A DNA stretch of 64,000 nucleotides from Desulfobaccales bacterium (GTDB lineage Bacteria; Desulfobacterota; Desulfobaccia; Desulfobaccales; 0-14-0-80-60-11): assembly GCA_049585595.1 (NCBI GenBank), contig JBAVAG010000025.1:17632-81631 (forward strand), in the 5' to 3' direction. Of the stretch, positions 1 through 44,201 are shown piece after piece (within the stretch, counting starts at the first letter, position 1; the number at the start of each line of letters is the position of its first letter). The notes beneath the pieces are model-generated. The model saw only the letters and a program-made list of their open reading frames with translations. It was not told the origin of the DNA and did not search any database. The translations under genes were made by a program, and so were the position numbers.

Positions 1-176
1 TTCGAAATTGGACTTCCATTTATCCGCAGTTCGGAATATTCACAAATGCGCTGATTGAGAGGTTGCTCGGAAAATAATTTTAGGAATTCCAGCCTTTCCC
101 GGAGCGGGATTCTGAAATAAAGCGGGCTTTCCATCAAAACCGCCAGAAGCTCTCTTCTAACGAATGCAGTCGCCAT
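1..176 (-). CDS. hypothetical protein, N-terminal part only (gene runs off the left edge)
   Basis: Minus-strand ATG at 174-176 with GGGAGG 7 nt upstream. Frame is open to position 1 (MATAFVRRELLAVLMESPLYFRIPLRERLEF...). No family recognised. It is the first ORF downstream of the riboswitch-like leaders. Confidence 0.4.
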   Translation of the reverse strand, partial: MATAFVRRELLAVLMESPLYFRIPLRERLEFLKLFSEQPLNQRICEYSELRINGSPIS

Positions 177-274
177 TTGGGAATTCCTCCCAGCTTATGA
201 GATTTATCTGGTTGGTTTGCCGATGCCTCTTGGGCTTCGCTGGCAATATTGTTCATCGCTGAGAAACCAAAATC

Positions 275-366
275 AAAAAGCCGGGCTGCCCCACCTGCAG
301 GCAACCCGGCTATCTCTTAAAGACCCGTGGTTTTCCGTCCCCACCTCGCGGCGGGTTTGGCTTTTT
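275..366 (-). promoter_or_regulatory. c-di-GMP-I (GEMM-I)-like riboswitch aptamer plus intrinsic terminator, proximal copy
   Basis: The minus strand reads AAGCCAAACC-CGCC-GCGA-GGTG-GGGACGGAAAACCACGGGTC...GATAGCCGGGTTGCC. This resembles the Vc2-type pattern GGCAAACC-hairpin(GNRA)-GGGACGCAAAGCC-CGG...GCGGGGUUACC. It is followed by the hairpin CCGGGTTGCC/GGCAGCCCGG and T5. The 5' arm of the terminator overlaps the 3' strand of the aptamer. Confidence 0.5.
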
Positions 367-399
367 CTTCAGGGTAAAAAAATTATATTTGGTAAACGA

Positions 400-428
400 A
401 TGATAAGTATATATCGAAAGCTTGTAAA
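400..428 (-). promoter_or_regulatory. sigma70-type promoter for the proximal riboswitch unit
   Basis: Minus strand TTTACA (423-428), 17-nt spacer, TATCAT (400-405). It lies about 35 nt upstream of the aptamer. Confidence 0.4.
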
Positions 429-569
429 CCTATAAATGCTAACGGATGATGACGAATTACTCATAACGGCCTTGGGACCAGCGGGGTCAAACGCCGGTTT
501 TAGAGCAGTTACAGAGAGATCAGTCCAGTCTGAACCAAGTCTTGCTCAGATCGCCATGATTAGCCGCAC

Positions 570-663
570 AAAAAAAACCGGTCTGCCTGCATCCAGGCAA
601 CCCGGCTATCTCTTAAAGACCCGTGGCTTTCCGTCCCCCCCTCACGGCGGGTTTGGCTTTTCC
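570..663 (-). promoter_or_regulatory. c-di-GMP-I (GEMM-I)-like riboswitch aptamer plus intrinsic terminator, distal copy
   Basis: About 85% identical to 275-366. The GNRA loop is GTGA with compensatory stem changes. Terminator hairpin CCGGGTTGCCTG/CAGGCAGACCGG followed by T8. Confidence 0.5.
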
Positions 664-672
664 GGCAACATA

Positions 673-701
673 TATTTAAGCCTTACCTCTAAATCCGTCA
701 A
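673..701 (-). promoter_or_regulatory. sigma70-type promoter for the distal riboswitch unit
   Basis: Minus strand TTGACG (696-701), 17-nt spacer, TAAATA (673-678). Confidence 0.4.
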
Positions 702-977
702 GGTTTTTTGAGGAATGATTAAATAATTTTAGGCTCATTATAAAAGGTCTGCCACAGGTTTGGTGAGATAAGCGGCGAGGAGTGTTGCCGGAGGCGTTAC
801 GGCAGCGTGACTGTGAAGAAGAACGTGCCGCCAGGAACAAAGGCGCGAATATATTGCGGCATAAGTTAGGCCTAACCCAATTGCCCAAGGCGGGAGGCGT
901 TTCACTTTCCCGCCCTACGGCTACTGAAGGCGGGACGCGCTTCGCTTTCCGGCCCTACGAGCTTCCACTCTTTGCCA

Positions 978-1175
978 CTAGTATTGTGTCCCACGGAAAC
1001 GTTGCATAAATGTTTTGCCTTTTCCCCTCGTCCTTGAGGGGGCGCCACCGGGTGGGGGTGGTAATTTATTGTTCATTTACCATATGTTGCCACCCTCCCC
1101 CCAACCCCCTCCCCTCTCAGGGAGGGGGGGTTATCCCAAATCTTTTGGTAAGATAATTGTGGGACCTAGTACTAG
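978..1175 (+). mobile_element. 198-bp MITE-like repeat, full-length copy 1
   Basis: Terminal inverted repeats CTAGTATTGTGTCCCAC ... GTGGGACCTAGTACTAG. Two internal CCCCTC/GAGGGG hairpin modules. Near-identical copies at 58071-58268 (same orientation) and 53358-53555 (inverted). Confidence 0.7.
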
Positions 1176-1237: not shown

Positions 1238-1645
1238 TTAAGGGCCAGTCCTCTGATAGGCAGTGCGATAAATAAATCCCTCGGGATTTATCCAAAACAT
1301 CTCGGTACTGATATGAGATACCATCCCACCCCGGGATGAACCACCCCCGCCGGACCCTCCACCTCGAGAAGAACCACCGCCGGAACCGCCGCCGCTATGT
1401 CGGCCCGTACCACCGCCGCTACCGGAATCAGGGGATAACTCCGATGACGAATATATGAAAATTTTGCCGCCCTGACCGTCGTCCAATTTTTCGTCGGGCG
1501 GTCCCTTGGCAGCAATCAGGTCGTTAAAGTTTTTGCCCTTCCAACCTGCTTCTAACTGCTGGGCCTTCTCGCCGGGGCTGGTGACACAAGCCCCGATGAG
1601 CAGGGCAATAAGAGCCAGAGCCAAGATTTCAATTTTTGCATCCAA
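1238..1645 (-). CDS. small lipoprotein with Gly/Ser-rich C-terminal half
   Basis: Signal peptide with lipobox (LIALLIGAC). GGGSGGG repeats in the C-terminal half. Confidence 0.6.
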   Translation of the reverse strand: MDAKIEILALALIALLIGACVTSPGEKAQQLEAGWKGKNFNDLIAAKGPPDEKLDDGQGGKIFIYSSSELSPDSGSGGGTGRHSGGGSGGGSSRGGGSGGGGSSRGGMVSHISTEMFWINPEGFIYRTAYQRTGP

Positions 1646-4526: not shown

Positions 4527-4667
4527 TTCCGGGTAGGCCTGCAATAATTTTCCGTCTCCAGCAGCCGTTAAATATGCCAGTTTTAAACTAATCGAAAGGT
4601 TTGTTTTGTAAGGTCCTTGAAATTGCGTTTTGGAAATACACCTCAATTCGGGTCCAGGGAGCGAGTC

Positions 4668-5744
4668 ATGCGTGAATTCAAGATCGCAGCCATCCCGGGT
4701 GATGGCATCGGCAAGGAAGTTGTGGCTGCCGGCCTCGAAGCTCTCGAGGCCCTCGCGCAGCGCGACGGCGGCTTCCGCCTGAAGGTCGAGTCCTTCGACT
4801 GGGGATCGGACTATTACAAGAAGCACGGCGTCATGATGCCGGAGGATGGCCGCGAGACGCTTAAGAAATTCGACGCCATCTACTTCGGGGCGGTGGGCGC
4901 CCCCGACGTGCCCGACCACCTCACGCTGTGGGGCCTGCGTCTCAACATCTGCCAGCCGTTCGACCAGTACGCCAATGTCCGCCCCACCCGCATCCTCCCA
5001 GGTATTAAGAGCCCCCTGGGAGGGGTCCGGCGTCAGGACCTGGACTGGGTTATCGTGCGCGAGAATTCCGAGGGCGAGTATGCCGGCCAAGGCGGGCGTA
5101 CCCATCGAGGCTTTCCCGAGGAGGTCGCCACCGAGGTGGCCATTTTCACCCGGGCCGGTGTCACCCGCATCATGCGCTTCGCTTTCGCACTCGCCCGTTC
5201 GCGGCCGCGCCGGCTGCTGACCGTCGTCACCAAGTCCAATGCCCAGCGCCACGGCATGGTGATGTGGGACGAGATTGCCGCCGCGGTCGCGGCCGAGTTC
5301 CCGGACGTGACCTGGGACAAAATGCTGGTTGACGCCATGACCATGCGGATGACCCTGAACCCGGAAACGCTCGACACCATCGTGGCGACCAACCTCCACG
5401 CCGACATCCTATCCGATCTGGCGGCGGCGCTGGCCGGTTCGCCAGGGATGGCGCCAACCGCCAACCTCAACCCCGAGCGCCAGTTCCCGTCCATGTTCGA
5501 GCCGATCCACGGCTCGGCCTTCGACATCGCCGGCCAGGGCATCGCCAACCCCATCGGCACCTTCTGGACTGCCTGCCTGATGCTGGAGCATCTGGGCGAG
5601 AAGGCGGCTGCCGGCCGGCTGATGCGGGCGATCGAACGGGTGACCGCGGCGCCGTCGCTGCACACGCCCGACCTCGGCGGCACCGCCACCACCCGCCAGG
5701 TCACCGCTGCGGTGATCGCCGCGATCCGGGCCGACGACGAGTAG
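4668..5744 (+). CDS. tartrate dehydrogenase/decarboxylase (D-malate dehydrogenase; isocitrate/isopropylmalate dehydrogenase family)
   Basis: MREFKIAAIPGDGIGKEV...DAIYFGAVG...NVRP...ENSEGEYAG...NLHADILSDLAA pattern typical of the TtuC-type beta-decarboxylating dehydrogenases. Confidence 0.8.
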   Translation: MREFKIAAIPGDGIGKEVVAAGLEALEALAQRDGGFRLKVESFDWGSDYYKKHGVMMPEDGRETLKKFDAIYFGAVGAPDVPDHLTLWGLRLNICQPFDQYANVRPTRILPGIKSPLGGVRRQDLDWVIVRENSEGEYAGQGGRTHRGFPEEVATEVAIFTRAGVTRIMRFAFALARSRPRRLLTVVTKSNAQRHGMVMWDEIAAAVAAEFPDVTWDKMLVDAMTMRMTLNPETLDTIVATNLHADILSDLAAALAGSPGMAPTANLNPERQFPSMFEPIHGSAFDIAGQGIANPIGTFWTACLMLEHLGEKAAAGRLMRAIERVTAAPSLHTPDLGGTATTRQVTAAVIAAIRADDE

Positions 5745-11297: not shown

Positions 11298-14200
11298 ATG
11301 AATGACAAATTACTTGGATCTGTAATGGTCGTCGGCGGAGGAATCGCCGGGATGCAGGCCGCCTTAGACATAGCCAATTCAGGCTATTACGTCCACTTGG
11401 TGGAAAAGGGGCCAGCAATCGGCGGGGTCATGGCGCAGCTCGACAAGACCTTCCCCACCAATGACTGTGCCATGTGAATTATCTCTCCCAAGCTGGTCGA
11501 GGTCGGCCGGCATATTAACATTGAGGTGCATCCTCTGACAGAGGTGCAGGAGATTACCGGGGAGCCGGGAAATTTTACAGTCACCTTAGAGAAGCAGCCC
11601 CGGTATGTCGATCTGTCCAAGTGTACGGGCTGCGGGGATTGCGCCAAAGCCTGTCCGGTAGTCATTAAAGATGAATTTAATCTGGGGCTGGCGGATGGTC
11701 GGGCTGCCTATCGCCTCTATCCACAAGCCATTCCCTCGGCCTTTTCCATCCTGAAGGCGTCCCGGGCCCCGTGTACCCGCACCTGTCCCGCCGGGATTAA
11801 TGTTCAGGGTTATGTGCAGCTTATCAAGATGAGGAAATATGAAGAGGCCCTGAAGCTCATTATGGAGCGGCTGCCTTTTCCTGGATCCCTGGGGCGCATT
11901 TGCCCCCATCCCTGCGAGGAAAAATGCCGGCGTCAGGAGATGGATGATCCGATAGCTATTTCCTGCCTGAAGCGGTTCGCGGCTGACCAAGTGGATGTAG
12001 GCCAAATCTCCTTCCCCAAAGCCGATCCCCGGAAAGAAAAGGTGGCCATCATCGGTGCCGGTCCGGCCGGGTTGACCTGCGCCTATCATCTGACCCTGCG
12101 GGGCTATCCGGCCACTGTCTTCGAGGCCCTGCCTAAGCCCGGGGGCATGCTGATGGTAGGGGTTCCGGAATATCGCTTACCCCGAGACGTCTTGGAAAAA
12201 GAGATTAACAACATCCTGAGCCTGGGGGTGGACCTGAAGACCAATATGGCCCTGGGGCGGGACTTTACCCTGAAGGAGCTGTTTGACCAGGGATACAAGG
12301 CAGTTTTCCTGGGCCTAGGTTGCCATAGAGGACTTCCCCTGGGGATTCCGGGAGAGGAAGCCGAGGGGGTCATGCAGGGGGTAGAGCTCCTGCGCCGGCA
12401 TAGTCTGGGACTACCCCTGACGGTGGGCAAACAGGTGGCGGTCATCGGCGGCGGTAACGTGGCTCTGGATGCCGCTTGCACCGCCCGGCGTTACGGCGCC
12501 AACGTCACCATTGTCTATCGCCGCTCCCGGGAGGAGATGCCCGCCCATGCCTGGGAGATCGACCAGGGATTGTGCGAAGGCGTGAGCATCCATTATCTGG
12601 TGGCGCCCTCTAAGGTCTTGTCCGAAAATGGGCGGGTCACCGGGCTGGTCGTTCAGAAAATGGAATTAGGACCGCCGGATGCCTCCGGACGGCGCCGCCC
12701 GGAACCCATCCCGGGATCAGAGTTCGAGCTGCCGTATGACATGGTGGTCCCGGCCATTGGCCAGGCCGCCGGGCTGGATCCTTTAAAGGATGATGGCATT
12801 AAATTCAGCAGTCGTGGAACCATTGAGGTGGACCCGTTGACTTACATGACCTCTCGGATGGGGGTCTTCGCCGCCGGGGATGTCCAATCCGGTCCATGGA
12901 TTGCCGTGGAGGCGATAGGCGGCGCCATTGAGGCGGCGGAGTCCATCCATCGTTATCTCCGGGATATGGATTGGGTTGCCGGTCGCATCAAAGGCGTTGA
13001 TGCCGAGGTCCGCTGGCGGGACCTTCCTAAAGACAGGTGGGGGCGGCCCCGAGAATCTATGGTCACCATCCCCCCGGAGGTCTCTTCCATCTGCTTTGCC
13101 GAGATTGCCCAGGGTTTTACCGAGGAACAGGCCCTGGAGGAAGCGGACCGCTGCATCAACTGCGGCATCTGTTCCGAATGTATGCAGTGTGTGGCAGCCT
13201 GCCAGGCCGGGGCCATCGACCACAGCCAACAGCGCCGGATAATGGACCTTAATGTGGGTTCTGTGGTGCTGGCGCCTGGCTTCCGAGCCTTTGATCCTAG
13301 CGATTATGGAAAATTTCAGTATGCCTCCCATCCCAATGTGGTGACCTCCCTGGAGTTTGAACGGATGCTTTCGGCCGGAGGGCCTTTTGCCGGGCATTTG
13401 ATCCGGCTCTCGGACCATAAAGAGCCCAAAAAGATCGCCTGGTTGCAATGCGTCGGCTCTCGCGACCTGAATCAATGTGAAAAAGGCTATTGTTCCGCGG
13501 TGTGCTGCATGTATGCCGTCAAACAAACAATGATCGCCAAAGAACACAGCAAGGAACCTCTGGATACCGCCATCTTCTTTATGGATATGCGCACTCCTGG
13601 TAAAGGGTTTGAGAAGTATTATTGGCGGGCCCAGGATGAGCTTGGGGTGCGGTTTGTCCGCTCCCGGGTACATAGTATCGAGCCGGTCCCCGGTACCGAT
13701 GATTTGACGGTGAAGTACTGGTCTGAAGACGGCTCTTTAAACACGGAATCCTTTGATATGGTGGTTCTTTCCATCGGGATGGTGATCCCCCCGGACACCG
13801 TGAAAATGGCTAAGAAGTTAGGGATAGAGCTGAGCCCCAATAACTTTGTGAGTGCAAGCTGCTTTGACCCGGTGGCCACTTCCCGGCCCGGGGTTTATAC
13901 CTGTGGAGCGTTTACCGGTCCCAAGGATATCCCTCAGTCGGTCATGGAGGCCAGCGCGGCCGCGTCGGCTTCAACCAGGGCTTTGGCTGCGGCCCGGGGC
14001 ACCTTGCAAAAGAAAAAGGAATTCCCGCCAGAGACGGAAGTGGCAGGGGAGCCAGCCAGAATTGGCGTGTTCGTTTGCAACTGCGGCATTAATATCGGCG
14101 GCATTGCCGACGTACCTGCCATCGTGGAATACGCCAGGACCATTCCCAATGTGGAATACGCGCAAGCCAACCTCTTCAGTTGCTCTCAAGACGCGCAGAA

Positions 14201-15737
14201 GCAGATGGCAGACGTAATCCAGGAACAAAAGCTGAACCGGGTGGTGGTGGCTGCCTGCAGCCCTTCCACTCACCAACCTATCTTCCAGGATATGCTGAGA
14301 AATGCGGCCTTGAACAAATATCTCTTTGAGATGGCCAATATCCGCAATCAGTGCACCTGGTGCCACCAAGCGGAGCCTGAGGCGGCCACGGAAAAATGCA
14401 AGCTCCTGGTCAATATGGCGGTGGCTAAGGCCCGGTTGCTCGAGCCCCTGGAATACATCACGGTGGACGTGACCCATAAGGCCTTGGTAATAGGCGGTGG
14501 CGTGGCGGGCATGGAAGCCAGCTTGGCCCTGGCCGATCAAGGTTATGATGTGCACCTGGTGGAGCGGCAGCCATTCCTGGGAGGTCAGGCTCTCAACCTC
14601 CATAGCACCTGGAAGGGAGAAAAAGTCCGTCCTTATGTCGAGGGTTTGATCGAAAAGGTAGCTAGGCATGACAAGATAGCCGCCCATTTAGGGTCCAACG
14701 TTACCGAGGTCCACGGGGTCGTTGGTAACTTTGCCTCGAAACTCTCCCCTGAGAATGAGGAGATCCATCACGGCATCGTCATTTTTGCCACCGGAGCTGA
14801 ACCTTATGAGCCAGAAGGCCAATTTCTGTATAAGCAAAATCCGAATGTCCTCCTTTCCCTGGACCTGGATCGGGAAATAGCCCAGGAAAGCGAGCGGCTC
14901 AAGAGCGCCGGAGCGGTAGCCTTCATCCAGTGTGTGGGCTCACGCATCCCGGAAAGGCCGTATTGCAGCAAGGTTTGCTGTTCCCATTCCGTGGAGAATG
15001 CTCTGAGGCTTAAAGAGATGAATCCGGAGAAGGATGTCTACATCATCTACCGGGATCTGCGGACCTATGGGGAAAGGGAAACCTTGTATGAAAGGGCTCG
15101 GGAAAAAGGGGTGCTTTTCTTCCGTTATGACCTGGAGGATCCACCCCTGGTGGAAGATGCCGACGGCAAAATAATCATCAAGGTCATGGATCGTGCCCTG
15201 AAGAGGCCGATAGAGCTAACCCCCGACCTCCTGGTTTTGGCTACCGCCATTGTGCCTTATGACAATACCCGCATTTCTGAACTTTACAAGGTTCCGCTTA
15301 GTTCCGAGGGCTTTTTCAATGAGGCGCACGCCAAGATCAGGCCGGTGGACTGTGCCACCGAGGGCATCTTTCTGGCAGGGCTCTGCCATTTCCCCAAACC
15401 CATAGATGAGTCCATTGCCCAGGCATTGGCGTCTGCCTCCAGGGCGTCCACTATATTGTCGAGGGATTCCCTGGAACTGGAATCCACCGTCTCCCGCCCC
15501 ATTGATGAGAACTGCGACGGCTGCGCCTTCTGTATAGACACCTGTCCGTTTAAGGCTATAACGCTGCTAGAATACATGAAAGAGGGAGGGGTGAAGAAGA
15601 CTGTAGAGATTAACGCGATCCTTTGCAAAGGTTGCGGCTCATGTATGGCCACCTGTCCCAAGCAGGGCATCAATATTGCTGGGTTTACGATGGCCCAGTT
15701 GGGTGCCCAGGTAGAGGCGGCGCTCGGATTAATCTAA
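11298..15737 (+). CDS. giant HdrA-like flavoprotein with inserted GltD/NfnB-type NAD(P)H module ('HdrL' type); in-frame TGA (probable selenocysteine) at 11475-11477
   Basis: ATG 11298 is in frame with track ORF 11526-15737. N-terminus MVVGGGIAGMQAAL..TFPTNDCAM-TGA-IISPKL, whereas paralog 17755-22236 has TFPTNDCSTCLISPKL (Cys). Contains GltD-like CPAGINVQGYV..VAIIGAGPAGL, HdrA blocks WLQCVGSRD..CCMYA and FIQCVGSR..CC, and a C-terminal 2x[4Fe-4S] domain. Confidence 0.8.
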
Positions 15738-17754: not shown

Positions 17755-20700
17755 ATGACTACTGACAAGACGAAAACCGGCGCCATTAGCGTGATAGGGG
17801 GCGGCATCGCCGGCATGCAGGCCGCCCTGGATGCAGCCAATGCCGGTTTCAAGGTCTATCTGGTGGAGAAGGATATCTCCATCGGCGGGGTCATGGCCCA
17901 GTTGGACAAGACCTTTCCCACCAACGATTGCTCCACCTGCTTGATCTCCCCCAAGCTCATCGAGGTGGCCCGGCATCCGGACATCGAAATCATCACGCAG
18001 TCGGAGATCGCCGGCGTGGAGGGTGAGGCGGGCCGTTTCACCATCACCCTGCACCAGGAACCTCGCTACATCGACCCGGCCAAGTGCAACGCCTGCGGAG
18101 CCTGTGCGGAAGCCTGCCCGGTGCACCTGCCTTCGACCTTCGATGAAGGTTTGGGGGTACGCCCCGCCGCCTACCGGCATTTCCCCCAGGCGATTCCCGC
18201 CACCTTTGCCATCATGAAGGCCTCCCGGGCCCCCTGCGTGCGGGCCTGCCCGGCCAATTTGAGCGCCCAGGGCTACGTCCAGTTGATCAAGGAGCACAAA
18301 TTCCCGGAGGCCCTGGCCATTATCATGGACCGGCTGCCGCTGCCGGGGACCATCGGCCGCATCTGCCCGCATCCCTGCGAGGTCGACTGCCGGCGCCAGG
18401 AAGTGGATGAGCCCATCGCCATCTGCAACCTGAAGCGCTTCGTGGCCGACACCGTGGATTGGAGCACCCTGCCGGTGCCCGAAATCCCCCAGAGGAGCGA
18501 AAAGGTGGCCATCCTCGGGGCCGGTCCCTCGGGATTGAGTTGCGCCTACCACCTGGCCAGGAAGGGCATCCAGACGGTGATTTTCGAGGCTGCGCCTGAG
18601 GCTGGCGGCTGGCTGCGCTATGGCATCCCGGAATACCGGCTGCCCAGGAACGTGCTGCAGCAAGAAGTGGACTATATTCAGCGCCTGGGCGTACAGATCA
18701 ACTATAACTCCCCCATCGGCAAAGGCCGCACCATCAACGACCTGCTGACCCGGGACGGCTTCAACGCCGTGTTTATCGGGGTCGGAGCCCAGGATTCGCT
18801 GCGCATTCCGGTTCCCGGCCATGAGGCCCAAGGGGTCCTCTGGGGGGTCGAGTACCTCAAAGACTCGGCCATGGGCAAAAAGCTGGACTTGTCTGGCAAG
18901 AAGGTGCTGGTCATTGGCGGCGGCAACGTCGCCATGGACGCGGCCCGCACTGCGGTGCGGCAGAAGGGTAAAGTCACCCTGATCTGTCTGGAGTCGCCCG
19001 AAGAGATGCCCGCCTCCCCTTGGGAAGTGGAAGAGGCCAGGCACGAAGGCGTGGAGATCGTCACCCGCTGGGGCGTCAAGCAGGTCTTGGAGAAGGGCGG
19101 TAAGGTCACCGGCATCGAACTGAAGGCGGTGGAGCGGGTCTTTGACGAGCAGGGCCGCTTTGCCCCCACCTACTTTGAAGATCAGACCAGGCCCGAGACG
19201 GCCGACGTCATCATTATGGCCATCGGCCAGAAAACTGACCTGAGGTTCCTCACCGAAGCCGATAAAATCCAGCTCACTCCCCGGGGCCTCATCCAGGCGG
19301 ACCCGGTCACCAAGGCCACCAGCTGGGAAGGCGTCTTTGCCGGCGGCGATGTGGAGACCGGCCCCTATATCGCCATTGCCGCGGTGGCCGCGGGCCGCGA
19401 GGCGGCGGAGTCCATTGACCGCTACCTCCAGGGGAAGGATTCGCAGGCCGGCCGCGATCTGCCGCTGCGCCCCCTTCCAAAGGAACAGGGCAATTGGGCG
19501 CCCATCCGGGCCGACATTGAGAAGAAGCCGCGGGCCATGATACAGACCCCGCCGGTGGAAGAATGGATCAAGAGTTTTAAGGAAATCAACCTGGGCTACA
19601 GCGAAGCAGAAGCTGTGGCCGAAGCGGACCGCTGCATCAACTGCGGCATCTGTTCCGAATGTATGCAGTGTGTGGCTGCCTGCCAGGCCGGGGCCATCAA
19701 TCACCAGGATCAGCCCCGGACCCGGCAGCTCGAGGTGGGGGCCATGATCCTGGCCCCGGGCTTCCGGCCCTTCGACGCCGGGGAGAAGCCCGAATACGGT
19801 TACGGCCGCTATCCCAACGTGGTGACCTCGCTACAATTCGAGCGCCTCCTTTCCGCCACCGGGCCTTATGAGGGGCATGTCCTGCGTCCCAGTGACGGCG
19901 CCCCGCCCCGCAAGGTGGCTTGGATCCAGTGCGTGGGCTCCCGGGATGCCTCCTGCGGCCGGGAATACTGTTCCTATGTGTGCTGCATGTACGCCACCAA
20001 GCAGGCTATCATCGCCCGGGAGCACGACCACAACGTAGAACCCACCATTTTTTACATAGACTTACGGGCCCAGGGGAAGGGCTTCGACCGCTACGCCGAG
20101 CGGGCCGAGAAACAACACGGGGTGCGCTATGTCCGTAGTATGGTCTCCCGGGTGGCCCAGGATCCCCGCACTAAAAATCTGGAACTCAGTTTTGTGGATG
20201 ACTCCGGCCAGGTGCAAAGCGAAGTCTTTGACATGGTGGTGCTCTCCGTGGGCCTGAACCCCCATCCGGCTGCCCGGGAAATGGCGGCCAGGTGCGGCAT
20301 CGACACGGACCGCTACGGCTTTGCCGTGAGTCCGCCCCTGGAGCAGCCGTCCACCTCCCGGCCAGGGATCTTCGCCTGCGGCGTCTTCCAGTCTCCCAAG
20401 GACATCCCGGAGACCGTGGGCCAGGCTTCCGGCGCCGCCGGGGCGGCAGCGTCCATGCTCGCCGAGGCCCGGGGCACCCTGCTCACCAAGGAAGAATATC
20501 CTCCGGAAAAGGACATCAGCGGGGAGGCCCCCCGGATCGGCGTCTTTATTTGCCATTGTGGCATCAACATCGCCGGGGTGACGGACGTGGCGGCGGTGAC
20601 CGAATTCGCCCGGACGTTGCCCGACGTGGTCTACGCCGACGACTATACCTTCACCTGCTCCACCGATTCCCTGGACAGGATGCGCCAGGTGATCGAAACC

Positions 20701-22236
20701 GAAAACCTCAACCGGGTGGTGGTGGCCTCCTGCAGCCCCCGGACCCACGAACCCCTGTTCCAGGAGAACCTGCGGAAGGCCGGGTTGAACAAGTACCTCT
20801 TCGAAATGACCAACATCCGGGACCAGGACTCCTGGGTGCACCAGGGAACCCCGGAGTTGGCTACTGAGAAGGCCAAGGAACTGGTGCGCATGTCGGTGGC
20901 CCAGGCCCCCATCCTGGAGCCTTTGGACGACCTGCTCTTCCCGGTTAGCCAGCAGGCCCTGGTGGTGGGCGGCGGCCTGGCCGGCCTGACGGCCGCCCTG
21001 ACCATTGCCGACGGCGGCTACCAGGTCTATCTGGCGGAGTTGGAGGACCGGCTGGGCGGCAGCCTGGCCCGGCGGATGCGCCGCACCTTGGAGGGCCATG
21101 AAGTCCAGCCTTATCTCCAGGAACTGGTGGCCCGGGTGGAAAACCACCCCCGCATTGACTGGTTGCCCAACACCCAGGTCCTAAACGTGAAGGGCCATAT
21201 CGGCAAATTCCAGGGCACCCTGGAATCGGGCGAGGGCCGCCGGGAGGTGGAATTCGGCGCGGTGGTGATTGCCACCGGCGGTGAGGAATATAAACCGGAA
21301 GAATACCTTTACGGCCAGGACCCCCGAGTCCTTACCCAATTGGAAGTGGAGAACCTGCTGGCGGAATCCCCCGAAACCCTAGGCGCCGCTCCCAGGGTGG
21401 TGATGATCCAATGCGTCGGCTCCCGGGAGCCGGAACATCAGTATTGCAGCCGCACTTGCTGCGGCGAGGCCGTCAAGAACGCCATTACCATCAAGGAGCT
21501 CAATCCAGCCGCCCAGGTCTTCATCCTCTACCGGGATATCCGGACCTATGGCCTCAAGGAGATTTTCTACAAGAAGGCCCGGGAGCTGGGGGTGCAGTTC
21601 GTGCGCTTCGAGGTGGAGCAGAAACCGGAAGTGCAGGCCACGGGCCAGGGCCTGGAAATATCGGTCTTCGACCAGTCGTTGCAAGCGAACCTGGCGCTGG
21701 CCGCCGATTACCTGGTGCTCTCGACGGCCATCCGGCCCCATCCGATGAGCCGGAAAATCGCCCGGGTCTTCAAGCTGCCTTTTGACGCCGACGGCTTCTT
21801 CATGGAAGCCCACCTGAAACTGCGGCCCCTGGATTTCGCCGCCAGCGGCATCTTCCTCTGCGGGCTGGCTCACTGTCCCAAGTTTCTGGAGGAAAGCCTG
21901 GCCCAGGCCAAAGGCGCGGCGGCCCGGGCCCTGGGGGTGCTGGCCCACGCGGAGATGTACGTGGCCGGCACGGTGGCCCAGGTAGACCCGCTAAAATGCG
22001 TCGCCTGCCTGACCTGCTTGCGCACCTGTCCCTTCGGGGTCCCCAGGATGGATGAAGGCGAGGGGGTGGTGGTCATCGACCCCGCCTCCTGTCACGGCTG
22101 CGGCAGCTGCGCCAGCGCCTGCCCCCGGAAGGCCATTGCGGTGAGTCACTACCTGGACAACCAATTTAATGCCAAGATTTGCGCCTGCTGCACGCCCTTG
22201 CCCAAGGTCGACTTAAGCGAAAGGATTGGAGCCTGA
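17755..22236 (+). CDS. giant HdrA-like flavoprotein with GltD/NfnB-type module ('HdrL' type), Cys form
   Basis: Same domain order as 11298-15737. Cys sits at the position of the Sec codon in the paralog. Confidence 0.85.
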   Translation: MTTDKTKTGAISVIGGGIAGMQAALDAANAGFKVYLVEKDISIGGVMAQLDKTFPTNDCSTCLISPKLIEVARHPDIEIITQSEIAGVEGEAGRFTITLHQEPRYIDPAKCNACGACAEACPVHLPSTFDEGLGVRPAAYRHFPQAIPATFAIMKASRAPCVRACPANLSAQGYVQLIKEHKFPEALAIIMDRLPLPGTIGRICPHPCEVDCRRQEVDEPIAICNLKRFVADTVDWSTLPVPEIPQRSEKVAILGAGPSGLSCAYHLARKGIQTVIFEAAPEAGGWLRYGIPEYRLPRNVLQQEVDYIQRLGVQINYNSPIGKGRTINDLLTRDGFNAVFIGVGAQDSLRIPVPGHEAQGVLWGVEYLKDSAMGKKLDLSGKKVLVIGGGNVAMDAARTAVRQKGKVTLICLESPEEMPASPWEVEEARHEGVEIVTRWGVKQVLEKGGKVTGIELKAVERVFDEQGRFAPTYFEDQTRPETADVIIMAIGQKTDLRFLTEADKIQLTPRGLIQADPVTKATSWEGVFAGGDVETGPYIAIAAVAAGREAAESIDRYLQGKDSQAGRDLPLRPLPKEQGNWAPIRADIEKKPRAMIQTPPVEEWIKSFKEINLGYSEAEAVAEADRCINCGICSECMQCVAACQAGAINHQDQPRTRQLEVGAMILAPGFRPFDAGEKPEYGYGRYPNVVTSLQFERLLSATGPYEGHVLRPSDGAPPRKVAWIQCVGSRDASCGREYCSYVCCMYATKQAIIAREHDHNVEPTIFYIDLRAQGKGFDRYAERAEKQHGVRYVRSMVSRVAQDPRTKNLELSFVDDSGQVQSEVFDMVVLSVGLNPHPAAREMAARCGIDTDRYGFAVSPPLEQPSTSRPGIFACGVFQSPKDIPETVGQASGAAGAAASMLAEARGTLLTKEEYPPEKDISGEAPRIGVFICHCGINIAGVTDVAAVTEFARTLPDVVYADDYTFTCSTDSLDRMRQVIETENLNRVVVASCSPRTHEPLFQENLRKAGLNKYLFEMTNIRDQDSWVHQGTPELATEKAKELVRMSVAQAPILEPLDDLLFPVSQQALVVGGGLAGLTAALTIADGGYQVYLAELEDRLGGSLARRMRRTLEGHEVQPYLQELVARVENHPRIDWLPNTQVLNVKGHIGKFQGTLESGEGRREVEFGAVVIATGGEEYKPEEYLYGQDPRVLTQLEVENLLAESPETLGAAPRVVMIQCVGSREPEHQYCSRTCCGEAVKNAITIKELNPAAQVFILYRDIRTYGLKEIFYKKARELGVQFVRFEVEQKPEVQATGQGLEISVFDQSLQANLALAADYLVLSTAIRPHPMSRKIARVFKLPFDADGFFMEAHLKLRPLDFAASGIFLCGLAHCPKFLEESLAQAKGAAARALGVLAHAEMYVAGTVAQVDPLKCVACLTCLRTCPFGVPRMDEGEGVVVIDPASCHGCGSCASACPRKAIAVSHYLDNQFNAKICACCTPLPKVDLSERIGA

Positions 22237-24272: not shown

Positions 24273-25520
24273 ATGAGAGACGATAAAGTCAATCCGGTGG
24301 TAGTCCTGGGCGGCGGCATTGCTGGGATTACCGCAGCCCTGGAGTTAAGCCGGGCCGGATTGGAGGCGGTCCTGGTGGAGAAGAGCCCCTTTTTCGGCGG
24401 GCGGGCCGCCAGCTTCGGCTGCAAAGCCACCGAGGTCTGCCAGCAATGTGGCGCCTGCCGGGTCGAACAAGGTTTGCGAGACCTGTTTTCGGCGCCGGGC
24501 CTCACCCTTTATGCCCACACGGAGCTGCTGGAAAGCCGGTCTGTTAACGGTTTGCTGCACCTGACCCTGAAGTCGCAGCCCCAGGTAATCGACTCCCACC
24601 GCTGCATCGATTGCGGCCTTTGCCTGGAGGAGTGCCCGGCGCCGGGAGGCGTGATAAGTGCGGCCTCCGCCGAGAACCATCCCCGTTTTGCGGTGAATCC
24701 GGCCGCCTGCCTCTATTTTCAAGACGGCTCCTGCCGCCGCTGCCAGGACCTCTGCCCCACCCAGGCCATCGATCTGGCCAGGTCCGAGACCGTGAGGCAA
24801 CTGGAGACCCCGAGCCTTATCTTGGCTACCGGCTATCAACCTGGGCAGCCTCCCTCCCGGGTGGCTTATACCAATTACTGCTGGCCCAACATCATCACCG
24901 GCCGGGAATTGGAGGAATTGATGCGGCAGGGCGGGCCTCTGCTCAGGCCCGGCGACGACCGGCCGGTGCGGCGTCTGGCCTTCATCCAGTGCGCGGGCAG
25001 CCGGGACCGGGAGCATTCGTATTGCTCCCGGGTCTGCTGCGCCTATGGGTTGCGCCTGGCTCGGCTGATCCACCATCGTTGGCCGGAGTGCCAGGTGACC
25101 ACTTTTTACATGGATCTGCAAAACATCGGCCCGGACCCCGAGAATTTCGAGGCTGCCGCCAGGCGGGAATTAGAATTGATCCGGGCCCTCCCCGGGGACG
25201 TGGTCGCCACGGACGATGGGGCCTTGAAATTGCCCTTTTTGGATGAAGCGAGCAACCGGGTGCGGTTTCGGGTGGTGGACCTCTTGGTCCTGGCAGTGGG
25301 TATCGCTCCTGGGCCAGACAACGTCAAACTGGCGGAAATGCTGCACCTGCAACTGAATCCGGACGGCTTCCTTAAGGACGGTCTGGATGGCACCCGGGCC
25401 GAAGCTCCAGGGATTTTCCTGGCCGGGACCGCCACCGGTCCCCAAAGCATCCTGGAATGCATCGCCCAGGGGACCCGGGCGGTCCGGCAGGTGCGTCAAT
25501 ATCTGGAGGCAAGGACGTGA
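24273..25520 (+). CDS. short HdrA-like FAD/FeS oxidoreductase
   Basis: VVLGGGIAGITAAL FAD fold, CIDCGLCLEECP and CRRCQDLCP clusters, FIQCAGSRD..YCSRVCC HdrA signature. Confidence 0.75.
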   Translation: MRDDKVNPVVVLGGGIAGITAALELSRAGLEAVLVEKSPFFGGRAASFGCKATEVCQQCGACRVEQGLRDLFSAPGLTLYAHTELLESRSVNGLLHLTLKSQPQVIDSHRCIDCGLCLEECPAPGGVISAASAENHPRFAVNPAACLYFQDGSCRRCQDLCPTQAIDLARSETVRQLETPSLILATGYQPGQPPSRVAYTNYCWPNIITGRELEELMRQGGPLLRPGDDRPVRRLAFIQCAGSRDREHSYCSRVCCAYGLRLARLIHHRWPECQVTTFYMDLQNIGPDPENFEAAARRELELIRALPGDVVATDDGALKLPFLDEASNRVRFRVVDLLVLAVGIAPGPDNVKLAEMLHLQLNPDGFLKDGLDGTRAEAPGIFLAGTATGPQSILECIAQGTRAVRQVRQYLEART

Positions 25521-29571: not shown

Positions 29572-31374
29572 ATGAATGCCAGCGGTTGGACCCAATTAAT
29601 TCTCTTCAGCGTCATCCTGCTGGCCCTCACCAAGCCCATGGGGCTATACCTGGTGCAGGTGCTGGATGCCAACGGCCGGACCTTCCTCGACCCGGTCTTA
29701 AAGCCGGTGGAGCGCCTGATCTATCGCCTGGCGGGCATCGATCCGACCAGGGAGCAGGACTGGAAAGGCTACGCCATCTCCGTCCTGATCTTCAGCCTGG
29801 TCACCATGATGTTGACCTATTTCATCCTGCGGCTGCAATACCTTCTGCCCCTTAACCCCCAGGGTTTTGCCGGGGTGGCCGGGGATCTTTCCTTTGAGAC
29901 CGCGGCCAGCTTCCTCGCCAACGCCAGCTATCAGAACTATATCGGTGAAAACACCATGTCCTACCTCTCCCAGATGGTGGCCCTGGCCTCACACTGCTTT
30001 TTCTCAACGGCCACGGCCATCGCTGTCGCAGCCGCCCTGGTGCGGGGTCTCGCCCGGGATAAGGCTGCGACCCTGGGGAATTTCTGGACCGACATGATCC
30101 GCAGCTGCCTTTACCTGCTGCTGCCCATCTCTCTGGTGTTTGCCGTGTTTTTGGTCTCCCAGGGGATGATCCAGAACTTCAGCGCCTACACCACGGCCCA
30201 GGTGATGGAACCTGTTACCACCCAGGTCGCCAAGAAGGACGCCAGCGGCCAGGAGGTCAAGGACGCCCAGGGCAACACGGTGCTGGAGAATGTTAAGGTG
30301 CGGACCCAGACCATCCCCCAGGGTCCCATGGCCTCCCAGGTATCCATCAAGATGCTGGGAAGCAATGGCGGCGGCTTCACCAACGCCAATGCCGCCCATC
30401 CCTTCGAGAATCCCACGCCGCTGTCGAACTTCATCCAGATGCTGTCCCTCTTCCTGATACCCAGCGGCCTCACTTATTACCTGGGCCGCCAGTTAAGGAA
30501 CCAGAAGCACGGCTGGTCGGTGTGGGCCGCTATGTTTTTACTCTTCCTGGTGGGCGTGCTCATCTGCTGGGGGGCGGAAACCTATGGCGACCCGCGGCTG
30601 ACGGCCCTGGGCCTCGACCCCACCACCAGCGCCATGGAAGGCAAGGAAGTCCGCTTCGGCATCTTTAATTCCGCTCTGTTTGCCACGATAACCACGGACT
30701 CCTCCTGCGGTGCGGTCAACGCCATGCTTGACTCCTTCACGCCCCTGGGCGGCCTGGTGCCGATGTTCAACATCCATCTGGGCGAGGTCATCTTCGGCGG
30801 CGCCGGGGCCGGCCTCTTCGGCATGCTGGTCTACGTGGTCCTGGCCATCTTCCTGGCGGGCCTGATGGTGGGCCGAACCCCGGATTACCTGGGAAAAAAG
30901 ATCGAGTCCTTCGACGTCCAGGTGGCGGCCCTGTCTATTCTGGTGCCCAGCGTCTTCCTGCTTGGCTTCAGCGCCTTGGCCGCCTCCAGCCAGTGGGGCG
31001 TCCAGCCTTTAGGCAATAGCGGACCCCACGGCTTCAGCGAGATACTCTACGCCTTCACTTCCTGTATCGGCAACAACGGCAGTGCCTTTGCGGGCCTGTC
31101 GGCCAACACCCTCTAGTATAACCTGACTCTGGGGCTGGCCACCCTGGTCGGCCGCTTCTTAACCATCGTGCCGGTATTGGCGCTGGCGGGCAGCCTGGGG
31201 GCCAAAAAGACCATGGCGGTGAGCCCCGGCAGTTTTCCGGTTTCCGGGGTCACTTTTACCCTTCTCCTCGTGGGCACCGTCATCATTGTGGGAGCCCTGA
31301 CCTTCTTTCCGGCCGTCAGCCTGGGTCCCATTGTGGAGCACTTCATCATGATTAATTCTAACAAGTTATTCTAA
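29572..31374 (+). pseudogene. kdpA: KdpA (K+-translocating subunit) interrupted by one in-frame TAG at 31114-31116
   Basis: Track ORFs 29572-31116 and 31168-31374 share a frame. The sequence across the stop, GLSANTL-TAG-YNLTLGLATLVGRF...GAKK...GALTFFPAVSLGPIVEH, is the conserved KdpA C-terminus. Confidence 0.7.
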
Positions 31375-31385
31375 GGGCTCCGACG

Positions 31386-44146: not shown

Positions 44147-44201
44147 TTCGATATCTCTCCATCTGAGGTCTCATCAGGTGAGCCTCAAGGTTGCTCAAAG
44201 T

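What the first reader, a model, noticed from the sequence alone, without database searches (positions are those of the whole stretch)
217..701. Two complete promoter / GEMM-I-like aptamer / terminator units in tandem upstream of an unknown gene
**Observation.** On the minus strand there are two roughly 90-nt elements, about 85% identical. They look like c-di-GMP-I riboswitches: a ..CCAAACC segment, a 6-bp hairpin capped by a GNRA loop (GCGA in one copy, GTGA in the other, with compensatory stem changes), GGGACGGAAA(A/G)CCACGGG, and ..GCCGGGTTGCC.

**Expression platform.** Each is followed by a strong terminator whose 5' arm reuses the 3' strand of the aptamer, the layout expected for mutually exclusive structures.

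**Promoters.** Each unit has its own good sigma70-type promoter (TTGACG-17-TAAATA and TTTACA-17-TATCAT).

**Arrangement.** The distal unit has no ORF of its own. It ends about 140 nt before the promoter of the proximal unit, which leads into the partial gene at 176-1.

**Possible roles.** Two-input or digital control, a riboswitch-derived sRNA, or a recent duplication. I cannot judge ligand specificity (c-di-GMP versus the cGAMP-type GEMM-Ib known from Geobacter) by eye.
Basis: partly seen in the sequence, partly recalled or inferred. Interest (0 to 1): 0.6.

Follow-up and report, generated by a model that had tools for sequence, protein, structure and literature searches.

The report
Two c-di-GMP riboswitches in series
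Two complete copies of the common RNA sensor for the bacterial signal c-di-GMP, each with its own stop signal, sit one behind the other ahead of a tiny gene of unknown function; this layout is already well documented, so the find is real but ordinary.

Summary
On the minus strand there are two c-di-GMP-I (GEMM-I) aptamers, at 370-296 and 666-592. Rfam E-values are 3e-15 and 4e-13. The aptamers are 91% identical, and 85% over the 91-nt repeat. Each is followed by an intrinsic terminator whose 5' arm is the aptamer's 3' strand, so both are ON switches.

Rfam's best label, "c-di-GMP-I-GGC", is misleading. Both copies carry A, not G, at the position that defines that variant. The ligand-contact triplet is the canonical G20/A47/C92, so c-di-GMP is expected rather than cGAMP.

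The regulated gene encodes a 63-aa protein from an uncharacterised family with no Pfam match.

In related metagenomic loci a single promoter-aptamer-terminator unit lies downstream of this gene. The window's proximal unit, including its -35 box and a remnant of the neighbouring gene's 3' end, is the counterpart of that unit. A third, decayed copy lies just beyond the window. The tandem therefore arose by local duplication and deletion.

Tandem c-di-GMP-I riboswitches are well known (347 doublets published). This is a new member of a known kind.

The parts
673..701 (-). Distal promoter-like site, TTGACG-17-TAAATA. The -10 hexamer ends 6 nt before the distal aptamer.
   Evidence: Read from the sequence. 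The scan did not call it because the -10 hexamer matches only 3/6. The position relative to the aptamer matches the TTGACA-17-TAATTA promoter of the closest single-unit relative, L081.
592..666 (-). Distal c-di-GMP-I aptamer. G20 equivalent at 657, A47 equivalent at 630, C92 equivalent at 597. It has a G.G mismatch in the GUGA-capped hairpin, and its P1 stem pairs in a shifted register.
   Evidence: RF03167 65.2 bits, E 3.7e-13. Own model R1 78.8 bits. Coordinates.
570..606 (-). Distal intrinsic terminator: a 6+6-bp interrupted stem followed by U8. Its 5' arm is the aptamer's 3' strand.
   Evidence: -21.3 kcal/mol; coordinates.
441..569 (-). Spacer with no credible ORF. The part from about 500 to 457 is a remnant of the 3' end of an excisionase-type HTH_17 gene; one frame reads ...SQGRYE*.
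   Evidence: ORF list. 479-395 is 79-81% identical to the 3' end of HTH_17 plus the intergenic region in L153, L154, L156 and L166. Translation. HTH_17 identity of the L153 gene.
400..428 (-). Proximal promoter-like site, TTTACA-17-TATCAT. The -35 box is conserved in related loci. A 19-nt insertion here separates it from the ancestral -10 hexamer.
   Evidence: Scan score 10/12. Alignment A7 shows TTTACA-17-TATTAT conserved in L153, L166, L132 and L133.
382..387 (-). TATAAT, the counterpart of the relatives' -10 hexamer, 11 nt upstream of the proximal aptamer.
296..370 (-). Proximal c-di-GMP-I aptamer. G20 equivalent at 361, A47 equivalent at 334, C92 equivalent at 301. GCGA tetraloop.
   Evidence: RF03167 72.6 bits, E 2.8e-15. 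R1 84.9 bits. Coordinates.
269..311 (-). Proximal intrinsic terminator: a 13-bp stem followed by UUUUUGAUUUU. Its 5' arm is the aptamer's P2/P1 3' strand.
   Evidence: -26.5 kcal/mol; coordinates.
177..268 (-). Leader of the small gene, conserved in homologous loci that lack a riboswitch. The Shine-Dalgarno GGAGG is at 190-186.
   Evidence: Alignments A3 and A6; coordinates.
1..176 (-). First 58 of 63 codons of a small protein of unknown function (P0001). It is predicted to form two helices and has no Pfam or NCBIfam match.
   Evidence: The full gene is seen in L001 at 4635-4826.

Best explanation
**What it is.** Two canonical c-di-GMP-I (GEMM-I) riboswitches lie in series upstream of a 63-aa protein gene. 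Each is a transcriptional ON switch.

**How each unit works.** Without ligand, the 3' strand of the aptamer pairs into a strong intrinsic terminator and transcription stops. With c-di-GMP bound, the aptamer holds that strand and RNA polymerase reads through.

**How the pair works.**
- Transcripts that start upstream of the distal unit must pass both checkpoints. Their yield rises roughly with the square of aptamer occupancy. This is the published 'pseudo-cooperative', more digital behaviour.
- Transcripts that start at the conserved promoter just upstream of the proximal aptamer pass only one checkpoint.
- Output is therefore approximately (P_distal x readthrough1 + P_proximal) x readthrough2.

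**How it arose.** The arrangement came from local segmental duplication and deletion of one ancestral promoter-aptamer-terminator unit. In relatives that unit sits downstream of this gene.

**Shown versus inferred.**
- Shown: family membership, the ligand-contact nucleotides, the aptamer/terminator overlap, the identity of the downstream gene, and the shared ancestry of the proximal unit.
- Inferred: ligand binding, promoter use, co-transcription of the two units, and the shape of the dose-response.
For: **Family membership.** Both aptamers exceed curated Rfam thresholds, and two further hits from the same clan also pass their own thresholds. On 61 related aptamers the structure pairs in 96.3% of cells. 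The G-C/C-G pair at columns 11/36 covaries perfectly, 34 to 27.

**Ligand contacts.** G, A and C occupy the positions that contact c-di-GMP in Vc2, namely G20, A47 and C92 (PMC4744006, PMC6140456). The interhelical C and G (aptamer positions 34 and 61) are present in both copies and invariant in alignment A5.

**Expression platform.** The terminators fold at -26.5 and -21.3 kcal/mol and share 11-16 nt with their aptamers. The closest relatives have the same aptamer-then-terminator layout.

**Downstream gene.** It is a real protein family. There are 113 clusters at E<=1e-3, and the differences between homologues are mostly synonymous.

**Proximal promoter.** The -35 box and its flank are conserved in L153, L166, L132 and L133.

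**Duplication history.** There is an HTH_17 3' remnant in the spacer. A third, decayed copy with an intact terminator lies 300 nt downstream of the gene: L001 5116-5197, 18 bits in Rfam and 29 bits with R1.

**Stability.** The tandem is identical in five independent assemblies.

**Precedent.** 347 doublets and 12 triplets of c-di-GMP-I riboswitches are published (PMC9481103). A characterised triple tandem is more stringent and digital than single units (PMC4759541). A tandem with an internal promoter has been described (PMC9481103).
Against: - There is no transcript or binding data.
- The distal copy is slightly degraded: a G.G mismatch in the tetraloop hairpin, a shifted P1 stem, a lower score and a weaker terminator.
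- Its promoter is weak by consensus, and promoter-like sites are not enriched over shuffles.
- The internal promoter would let much of the transcription bypass the distal unit and blunt any digital effect.
- The remnant -10 hexamer of the gene's own ancestral promoter (AATATT, 250-245) might still drive some riboswitch-independent expression.
- None of 80 related loci has a riboswitch upstream of this gene. The arrangement is therefore lineage-specific and could be evolutionarily transient.
Confidence: 0.72

Rival explanations
1. Only the proximal unit regulates the gene. The distal unit is a decaying by-product of the segmental duplications that reshaped this locus and contributes nothing measurable.
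For: - The distal copy has a G.G mismatch, a shifted P1 stem and a lower score (65.2 against 72.6 bits).
- Its terminator is interrupted and weaker, and its promoter is poor.
- A third copy in the same locus has already decayed.
- Only the proximal unit has counterparts with conserved flanks in other loci.
- A promoter lies between the two units.
Against: - The distal copy still scores above the curated threshold and keeps all three ligand-contact bases.
- Its P2 region is 100% identical to the proximal copy, and it keeps a U8 terminator tail.
- It is unchanged across five assemblies.
- An intact terminator 300 nt upstream will in any case block readthrough from upstream at low c-di-GMP.
Confidence: 0.18
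2. The distal promoter-aptamer-terminator module is a transcription unit of its own. It makes a roughly 100-nt riboswitch RNA that acts in trans or buffers free c-di-GMP.
For: - The module looks complete and has no ORF.
- It is separated from the next unit by 141 nt and a promoter.
- There is precedent for a GEMM-I aptamer being part of a small RNA: Vc2 in Vibrio cholerae (bioRxiv 10.1101/617340, seen).
Against: - There is no conservation outside this lineage.
- The unit is explained more simply by duplication.
- No candidate target was identified.
- A single-copy RNA is unlikely to buffer a second messenger.
Confidence: 0.06
3. The aptamers belong to a variant class with a different ligand: the 'GGC' variant that Rfam names, or the cGAMP-sensing GEMM-Ib.
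For: RF03167 (c-di-GMP-I-GGC) is the best-scoring Rfam family for both copies. Relatives come from Thermodesulfobacteriota, the deltaproteobacterial lineage in which cGAMP riboswitches were described.
Against: - Model position 37, a conserved G in the RF03167 consensus, is A in both copies.
- The same label is given to 18 of 19 control aptamers from many phyla that carry A at position 47.
- PMC9943018 notes that these models recognise the same sequences.
- Position 20 is G, whereas cGAMP riboswitches have A there (PMC6140456, PMC9481103).
Confidence: 0.04

Closest known systems
Tandem ('pseudo-cooperative') c-di-GMP-I riboswitches, for example Bc3-5 of Bacillus thuringiensis, and the 347 doublets catalogued by Sherlock et al. 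2022 (PMC9481103, PMC4759541)
   Same: Two complete riboswitches of the same class lie on one strand with no gene between them. Each has its own intrinsic terminator and both sit upstream of one gene. The expected consequence is a steeper, more stringent response to c-di-GMP.
   Different: - The spacer is long: 296 nt start to start.
- It contains a pseudogene remnant and a conserved promoter, so part of the transcription sees only one switch.
- The regulated gene is an uncharacterised 63-aa protein rather than a surface, motility or signalling protein.
- In my own sample, 8 of 100 GEMM-I loci had a second same-strand copy within 1.4 kb, at spacings of 160-1365 nt. The spacing here is therefore not exceptional.
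Adenine / T-box(Tyr) tandem of Clostridium botulinum, which has a second promoter between the two elements (PMC9481103)
   Same: There are promoter-like -35 and -10 boxes both upstream of the first element and between the two. The number of checkpoints a transcript meets therefore depends on which promoter is used.
   Different: That system combines two different ligands into a logic gate. Here both elements sense the same ligand.
Single promoter-GEMM-I-terminator units of Thermodesulfobacteriota, for example L081 (Desulfobaccales MAG) and L085 (delta MAG) upstream of PEP-CTERM proteins
   Same: The aptamers are nearly identical (L081 is 88% identical over 91 nt to the distal unit). The P1b closing pair is flipped to C-G in the same way. 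The terminator design and the promoter placement just upstream of the aptamer also match. L085 is likewise a tandem, made by duplication of a whole unit of about 490 nt.
   Different: The downstream genes differ (secreted PEP-CTERM proteins). In L085 the whole unit including its flanks is duplicated, whereas in the window only the 91-nt core is still similar.
c-di-GMP-I-GGC variant (Rfam RF03167; Weinberg et al. 2017, recalled from memory because the paper is not in the library)
   Same: It is the best-scoring Rfam model for both copies, and the overall fold is the same.
   Different: The defining G at the A47 position is absent, so these are not members of the variant.

Membership tests
c-di-GMP-I (GEMM-I) riboswitch, Rfam clan CL00126 | Covariance-model score above the curated gathering threshold | tested here: met
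   72.6 and 65.2 bits against a gathering score of 59. Two lower-scoring matches from the same clan also passed their own thresholds.
c-di-GMP-I (GEMM-I) riboswitch, Rfam clan CL00126 | Two-helix architecture on a P1 stem, with a GNRA-capped hairpin | tested here: met
   cmscan aligns both copies end to end, with loops GCGA and GUGA. The same structure pairs in 96.3% of cells with covariation on 61 relatives. The distal copy has one G.G mismatch and a shifted P1 stem.
c-di-GMP-I (GEMM-I) riboswitch, Rfam clan CL00126 | Ligand-contact nucleotides G20, A47 and C92 (Vc2 numbering) | tested here: met
   G at 361/657, A at 334/630 and C at 301/597. The contacts are taken from PMC4744006 and PMC6140456. 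The mapping to Vc2 numbering is by alignment to the model consensus.
c-di-GMP-I (GEMM-I) riboswitch, Rfam clan CL00126 | Conserved interhelical C-G pair | tested here: met
   The C of GGGAC (aptamer position 34) and the G of AGCC (position 61) are present in both copies and invariant in A5. That the pair is conserved across the family is stated in PMC4744006. The position mapping is inferred.
c-di-GMP-I (GEMM-I) riboswitch, Rfam clan CL00126 | Selective binding of c-di-GMP | not testable with these tools
   This needs in-line probing, isothermal titration calorimetry or equilibrium dialysis.
c-di-GMP-I-GGC variant (RF03167) | G instead of A at the position equivalent to Vc2 A47 (model position 37) | tested here: not met
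   Both copies have A there, and the cmscan match line is blank at that column. 18 of 19 control aptamers carrying A47 get the same label, so the label is not diagnostic. The meaning of 'GGC' is inferred from the model consensus and from memory of Weinberg et al. 2017.
c-AMP-GMP (GEMM-Ib) riboswitch | A at the position equivalent to Vc2 G20 | tested here: not met
   G at 361 and at 657. The criterion comes from PMC6140456 and PMC9481103.
Tandem pseudo-cooperative riboswitch | Two complete same-class riboswitches on one strand with no intervening ORF, each with its own expression platform | tested here: met
   This is the criterion used in PMC9481103.
Tandem pseudo-cooperative riboswitch | Both units lie on one transcript and give a steeper dose-response than one unit | not testable with these tools
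   A promoter-like site, conserved in relatives, lies between the units. Transcript mapping and reporter assays are needed.

The most novel reading that the evidence does not exclude
A compact promoter-aptamer-terminator cassette has been copied and moved within one locus. In doing so it replaced the operator-like palindrome and the -35 box that control this small-protein gene in relatives. A conserved small regulatory protein, normally paired or fused with an excisionase-type DNA-binding domain, was thereby rewired to direct c-di-GMP control. The orphan distal cassette would act as an independent c-di-GMP-gated RNA.
Probability: 0.12. Interest if true: 0.55.

Novelty: new member of a known kind. 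Interest (0 to 1): 0.3.

Why it matters
**Modest value.**
- It adds one well-dissected example to the large set of tandem c-di-GMP-I riboswitches. Here the evolutionary origin can be read directly from related loci: segmental duplication of a whole regulatory unit, followed by decay.
- It links c-di-GMP to an uncharacterised small-protein family of 113 sequence clusters. That family is otherwise found next to, or fused with, an excisionase-type helix-turn-helix domain. This gives a handle for studying the family.

**Practical caution.** Rfam's clan competition labels ordinary aptamers carrying A47 as the 'GGC' variant. Variant calls should be checked at the diagnostic nucleotide.

Tried and rejected
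1. **Taking the Rfam label at face value.** Rejected. The diagnostic position is A, and 18 of 19 control aptamers from many phyla get the same label.

2. **Dispersed-repeat explanation.** Rejected. The window has only two copies, plus one decayed copy in the same locus.

3. **Riboswitches are generally upstream of this gene family.** Rejected. None of 80 metagenomic loci, nor L007-L012, has one upstream. Six have one 300-380 nt downstream.

4. **A conserved RNA structure in the gene's leader.** RNAalifold found no consensus structure on 27 leaders. By eye there is a possible covarying helix in the divergent subgroup, which I did not pursue.

5. **An upstream small ORF in the leader.** Its ATG lies upstream of the likely -10 hexamer in near relatives, so it is probably not translated there. 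Left as a note.

6. **Function of the 63-aa protein.** No Pfam or NCBIfam hit. The AlphaFold model is only a two-helix hairpin with pLDDT 72, too simple for a fold search.

7. **Naming the organism.**
   - Taxonomy is inferred only from the closest aptamers (Thermodesulfobacteriota / Desulfobaccales MAGs) and from the anaerobe-type genes in the window.

8. **The paper defining the GGC variant.** It could not be retrieved.

Full report
**1. What is in the sequence**

Read on the minus strand, window 701-176 contains two matching modules. The repeat finder reports one 91-nt direct repeat, 275-365 and 571-661. It is 85% identical, with 296 nt from start to start. The flanks on either side do not align.

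Rfam cmscan of the whole window returns exactly two hits at gathering level, both full-length aptamers of clan CL00126:
- 370-296, 72.6 bits, E 2.8e-15.
- 666-592, 65.2 bits, E 3.7e-13.

A covariance model I built from 61 related aptamers (R1) also finds only these two in the 64 kb, at 84.9 and 78.8 bits. Aptamer-only identity is 68/75.

Each aptamer is followed by an intrinsic terminator:
- Proximal, 311-269: a 13-bp stem, then UUUUUGAUUUU, -26.5 kcal/mol.
- Distal, 606-570: a 6+6-bp stem, then U8, -21.3 kcal/mol.

In both, the terminator's 5' arm is the 3' strand of the aptamer's P2 and P1 helices. The two structures are therefore mutually exclusive. The full-length minimum-energy fold contains the terminator. 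A ligand-stabilised aptamer acts as the anti-terminator, which makes both units ON switches.

**2.

- The hairpin difference is not compensatory. Only position 28 differs (U against G). The proximal copy has a G-U pair and the distal copy has a G.G mismatch. The distal P1 stem also pairs one register off.
- The proximal promoter TTTACA-17-TATCAT (428-400) scores 10/12.
- The distal TTGACG-17-TAAATA (701-673) fails the scan's -10 criterion.
- The number of promoter-like sites in 1-1500 equals the shuffle expectation.
- Independent support for the proximal promoter comes from conservation (section 5).
- For the distal one there is only an analogy. The nearest single-unit relative, L081, has TTGACA-17-TAATTA at the same distance from its aptamer.

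**3. Ligand class**

The best Rfam family is RF03167, 'c-di-GMP-I-GGC'. In both cmscan alignments, however, model position 37 is a mismatch. It is a conserved G in the RF03167 consensus, at the place of A47 in the Vibrio Vc2 aptamer. Both copies have A there.

I tested whether the label means anything.
- *Pattern scan.* A pattern scan of GTDB representative genomes that allowed A or G at this position returned 123 matches. All had A.
- *Control cmscan.* cmscan on 18 of those loci, from Actinomycetota, Chloroflexota, Planctomycetota, Sericytochromatia and Thermodesulfobacteriota, labelled 18 of 19 aptamers RF03167. The label is therefore a by-product of picking the highest bit score within a clan.
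- *Literature.* PMC9943018 makes the same remark about these models.

The three ligand-contact positions are as follows. The contacts are from PMC4744006 and PMC6140456.

| Vc2 position | Base | Proximal copy | Distal copy |
|---|---|---|---|
| 20 | G | 361 | 657 |
| 47 | A | 334 | 630 |
| 92 | C | 301 | 597 |

cGAMP-sensing relatives have A at position 20 (PMC6140456, PMC9481103). On sequence grounds, both copies are ordinary c-di-GMP sensors.

The closing pair of the first helix is flipped to C-G. That flip covaries perfectly across relatives: 34 G-C against 27 C-G, with no mixed cases.

**4. The regulated gene**

The partial ORF at 176-1 has a Shine-Dalgarno GGAGG 9 nt upstream of its start. 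It is the first 58 codons of a 63-aa protein, P0001.

- Contigs from five assemblies carry the identical locus (L001-L005). All have both aptamers unchanged.
- The protein has no Pfam or NCBIfam match.
- The model is a two-helix hairpin with pLDDT 72.
- It is a real family. A profile search of 1.84 billion representatives finds 113 clusters at E<=1e-3. They share a conserved core, ILAVLMESPLYFTIPLxKRLEF. DNA differences between homologues are mainly synonymous.
- One homologue (P0004, locus L007) lies among PilZ, GGDEF, HD-GYP and PAS-kinase genes.

**5. Where the tandem came from**

None of the homologous loci L007-L012 has a GEMM element upstream. None of 80 metagenomic loci of this family does either.

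Six of those loci (L132, L133, L153, L154, L156, L166) instead have one GEMM-I unit 300-380 nt downstream of the small gene, on the same strand. It follows an excisionase-type HTH_17 gene, which is fused to the small protein in L132. It precedes a 35-aa hydrophobic peptide gene.

The flank upstream of the window's proximal aptamer (479-395) is 79-81% identical to the flank upstream of that unit in L153, L154, L156 and L166. In those loci the flank is the last codons of HTH_17 plus a promoter, TTTACA-17-TATTAT. The window keeps three traces of it:
- a frame reading ...SQGRYE* (compare FQGRSE* in L153);
- the -35 box;
- the counterpart of the -10 hexamer (TATAAT, 387-382).

Just beyond the window, L001 shows more of the same history:
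- a remnant of the HTH_17 start after the small gene;
- a 77-aa CxxCxGxG ORF;
- a third, decayed GEMM-I at 5116-5197 (18 bits in Rfam, 29 bits with R1) with an intact terminator;
- the matching 31-aa peptide gene.

The simplest history is this. The ancestral order was small gene, HTH_17, promoter-GEMM-terminator, peptide. Repeated local duplication with deletions left two units upstream of the small gene and a decaying one downstream.

In relatives, the sequence just upstream of the conserved leader is a palindrome, ATCAGG-N5-CCTGAT, followed by TTTACC-17-CATATT. In the window the proximal terminator occupies that place. Only the -10-like AATATT (250-245) remains, with the nearest -35-like hexamer 20 nt away.

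**6. Mechanism and how sure I am**

At low c-di-GMP both terminators form, and little transcript reaches the gene. At high c-di-GMP, transcripts from the distal start need two readthrough events. Transcripts from the conserved proximal promoter need one.

The mixture gives low basal expression and a response steeper than one switch alone. How much steeper depends on the strength of the internal promoter.

This matches the published 'pseudo-cooperative' class: 347 c-di-GMP-I doublets (PMC9481103) and an experimentally more digital triple tandem (PMC4759541). The same review also describes an internal promoter between tandem elements.

In my own sample, 8 of 100 GEMM-I loci have a second same-strand copy within 1.4 kb, at spacings of 160-1365 nt. 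L085 is a whole-unit duplication of about 490 nt.

I put 0.72 on this account. The main rival, at 0.18, is that the distal copy is a functionless relic. The sRNA idea and the alternative-ligand idea are minor.

**7. Verdict**

It is a new member of a known class.

It has two points of modest interest. The output gene is an uncharacterised small protein. The duplication history is unusually legible.

Noticed in passing
L001 5116-5197 (same organism; about 300 nt beyond window position 1, minus-strand direction): A third, decayed GEMM-I copy: 18 bits in Rfam and 29 bits with my own model. Its first hairpin is destroyed but its terminator is intact (GCCGGGTTGCCGAGGATTGGGCAATCCGG followed by T7). 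It probably now serves as the terminator of the small-gene transcript.
   Followed up: partly
L001 4941-5174: A 77-aa ORF with CxxCxGxG repeats (DnaJ_CXXCXGXG, 25 bits, below the Pfam cut-off). It sits where relatives have the HTH_17 gene, and its 3' end runs into the decayed riboswitch. The public gene call covers only its last 30 codons.
   Followed up: partly
L153 2492-3325; also L132, L133, L154, L156, L166: Conserved gene order: small protein, then excisionase-type HTH_17 (fused in L132), then promoter-GEMM-I-terminator, then a hydrophobic peptide gene (35 aa in L153, ...WYVILxGGIFLAVIAIVFGK; 31 aa in L001). The ancestral riboswitch target here appears to be a tiny membrane peptide.
   Followed up: partly
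window 177-268; L134, L141, L153, L007 and others, about 130 nt upstream of the small gene: The leader of the small-protein gene is conserved across the family. Near relatives have a palindrome, ATCAGG-N5-CCTGAT, followed by TTTACC-17-CATATT. In the window the riboswitch terminator replaces these. More divergent members show a possible covarying helix of 6-7 bp (AATCCGT/ACGGATT, AATCAG/CTGATT), although RNAalifold gave no consensus.
   Followed up: partly
window 134-304, minus strand: An ORF out of frame with the small gene and overlapping its start. Read from the ATG at 256 it gives MNNIASEAQEASANQPDKSHKLGG... In near relatives the corresponding 23-codon ORF ends before the gene. It has no Shine-Dalgarno sequence and is probably not translated.
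   Followed up: no
window 887-919 and 927-959; also L001 5470-5505, L176, L189, L204: A pair of 33-nt REP-like hairpin elements (GGCGGGAnGCGnTTyrCTTTCCsGCCCTA), 88% identical and absent from shuffles. Next to them is a 21-codon ORF (862-797), MPQYIRAFVPGGTFFFTVTLP, which weakly matches the N-terminus of REP-associated tyrosine transposases (E 0.08).
   Followed up: partly
window 1087-1128: A 42-nt G/C-rich palindromic element (CCCCTCCCTGAGAGGGGAGGGGG...) is 97.6% identical to L007 4297-4338, in a different genome of the same sample series. It may be another dispersed repeat.
   Followed up: no
window 1238-1645, minus strand: A 135-aa ORF with a lipoprotein-like N-terminus and a Gly/Ser-rich internally repeated tract (direct repeats at 1326-1421). 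It has no family match and is not called as a gene in the public assemblies.
   Followed up: no
Rfam RF03167 against RF01051 (loci L019-L129): Clan competition by bit score labels canonical GEMM-I aptamers carrying A47, from at least five phyla, as 'c-di-GMP-I-GGC'. Annotation pipelines that take the top clan hit will over-call this variant.
   Followed up: yes
window 29572-33416 (+) and 41993-46031 (-): Two kdpA-kdpB pairs in opposite orientation. The first KdpA ORF covers only profile positions 2-470 of 548 and is followed by a 270-nt gap, so it may be truncated or frameshifted.
   Followed up: no
window 11526-15737, 17755-22236, 25457-28447: Two ORFs of about 1400-1500 aa resembling HdrA (repeated Pyr_redox_2 plus 4Fe-4S domains). 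There is also a 996-aa fusion of FlpD/MvhD, a molybdopterin-binding domain and a glycine-cleavage H domain. These are typical of an anaerobe with flavin-based electron bifurcation.
   Followed up: no
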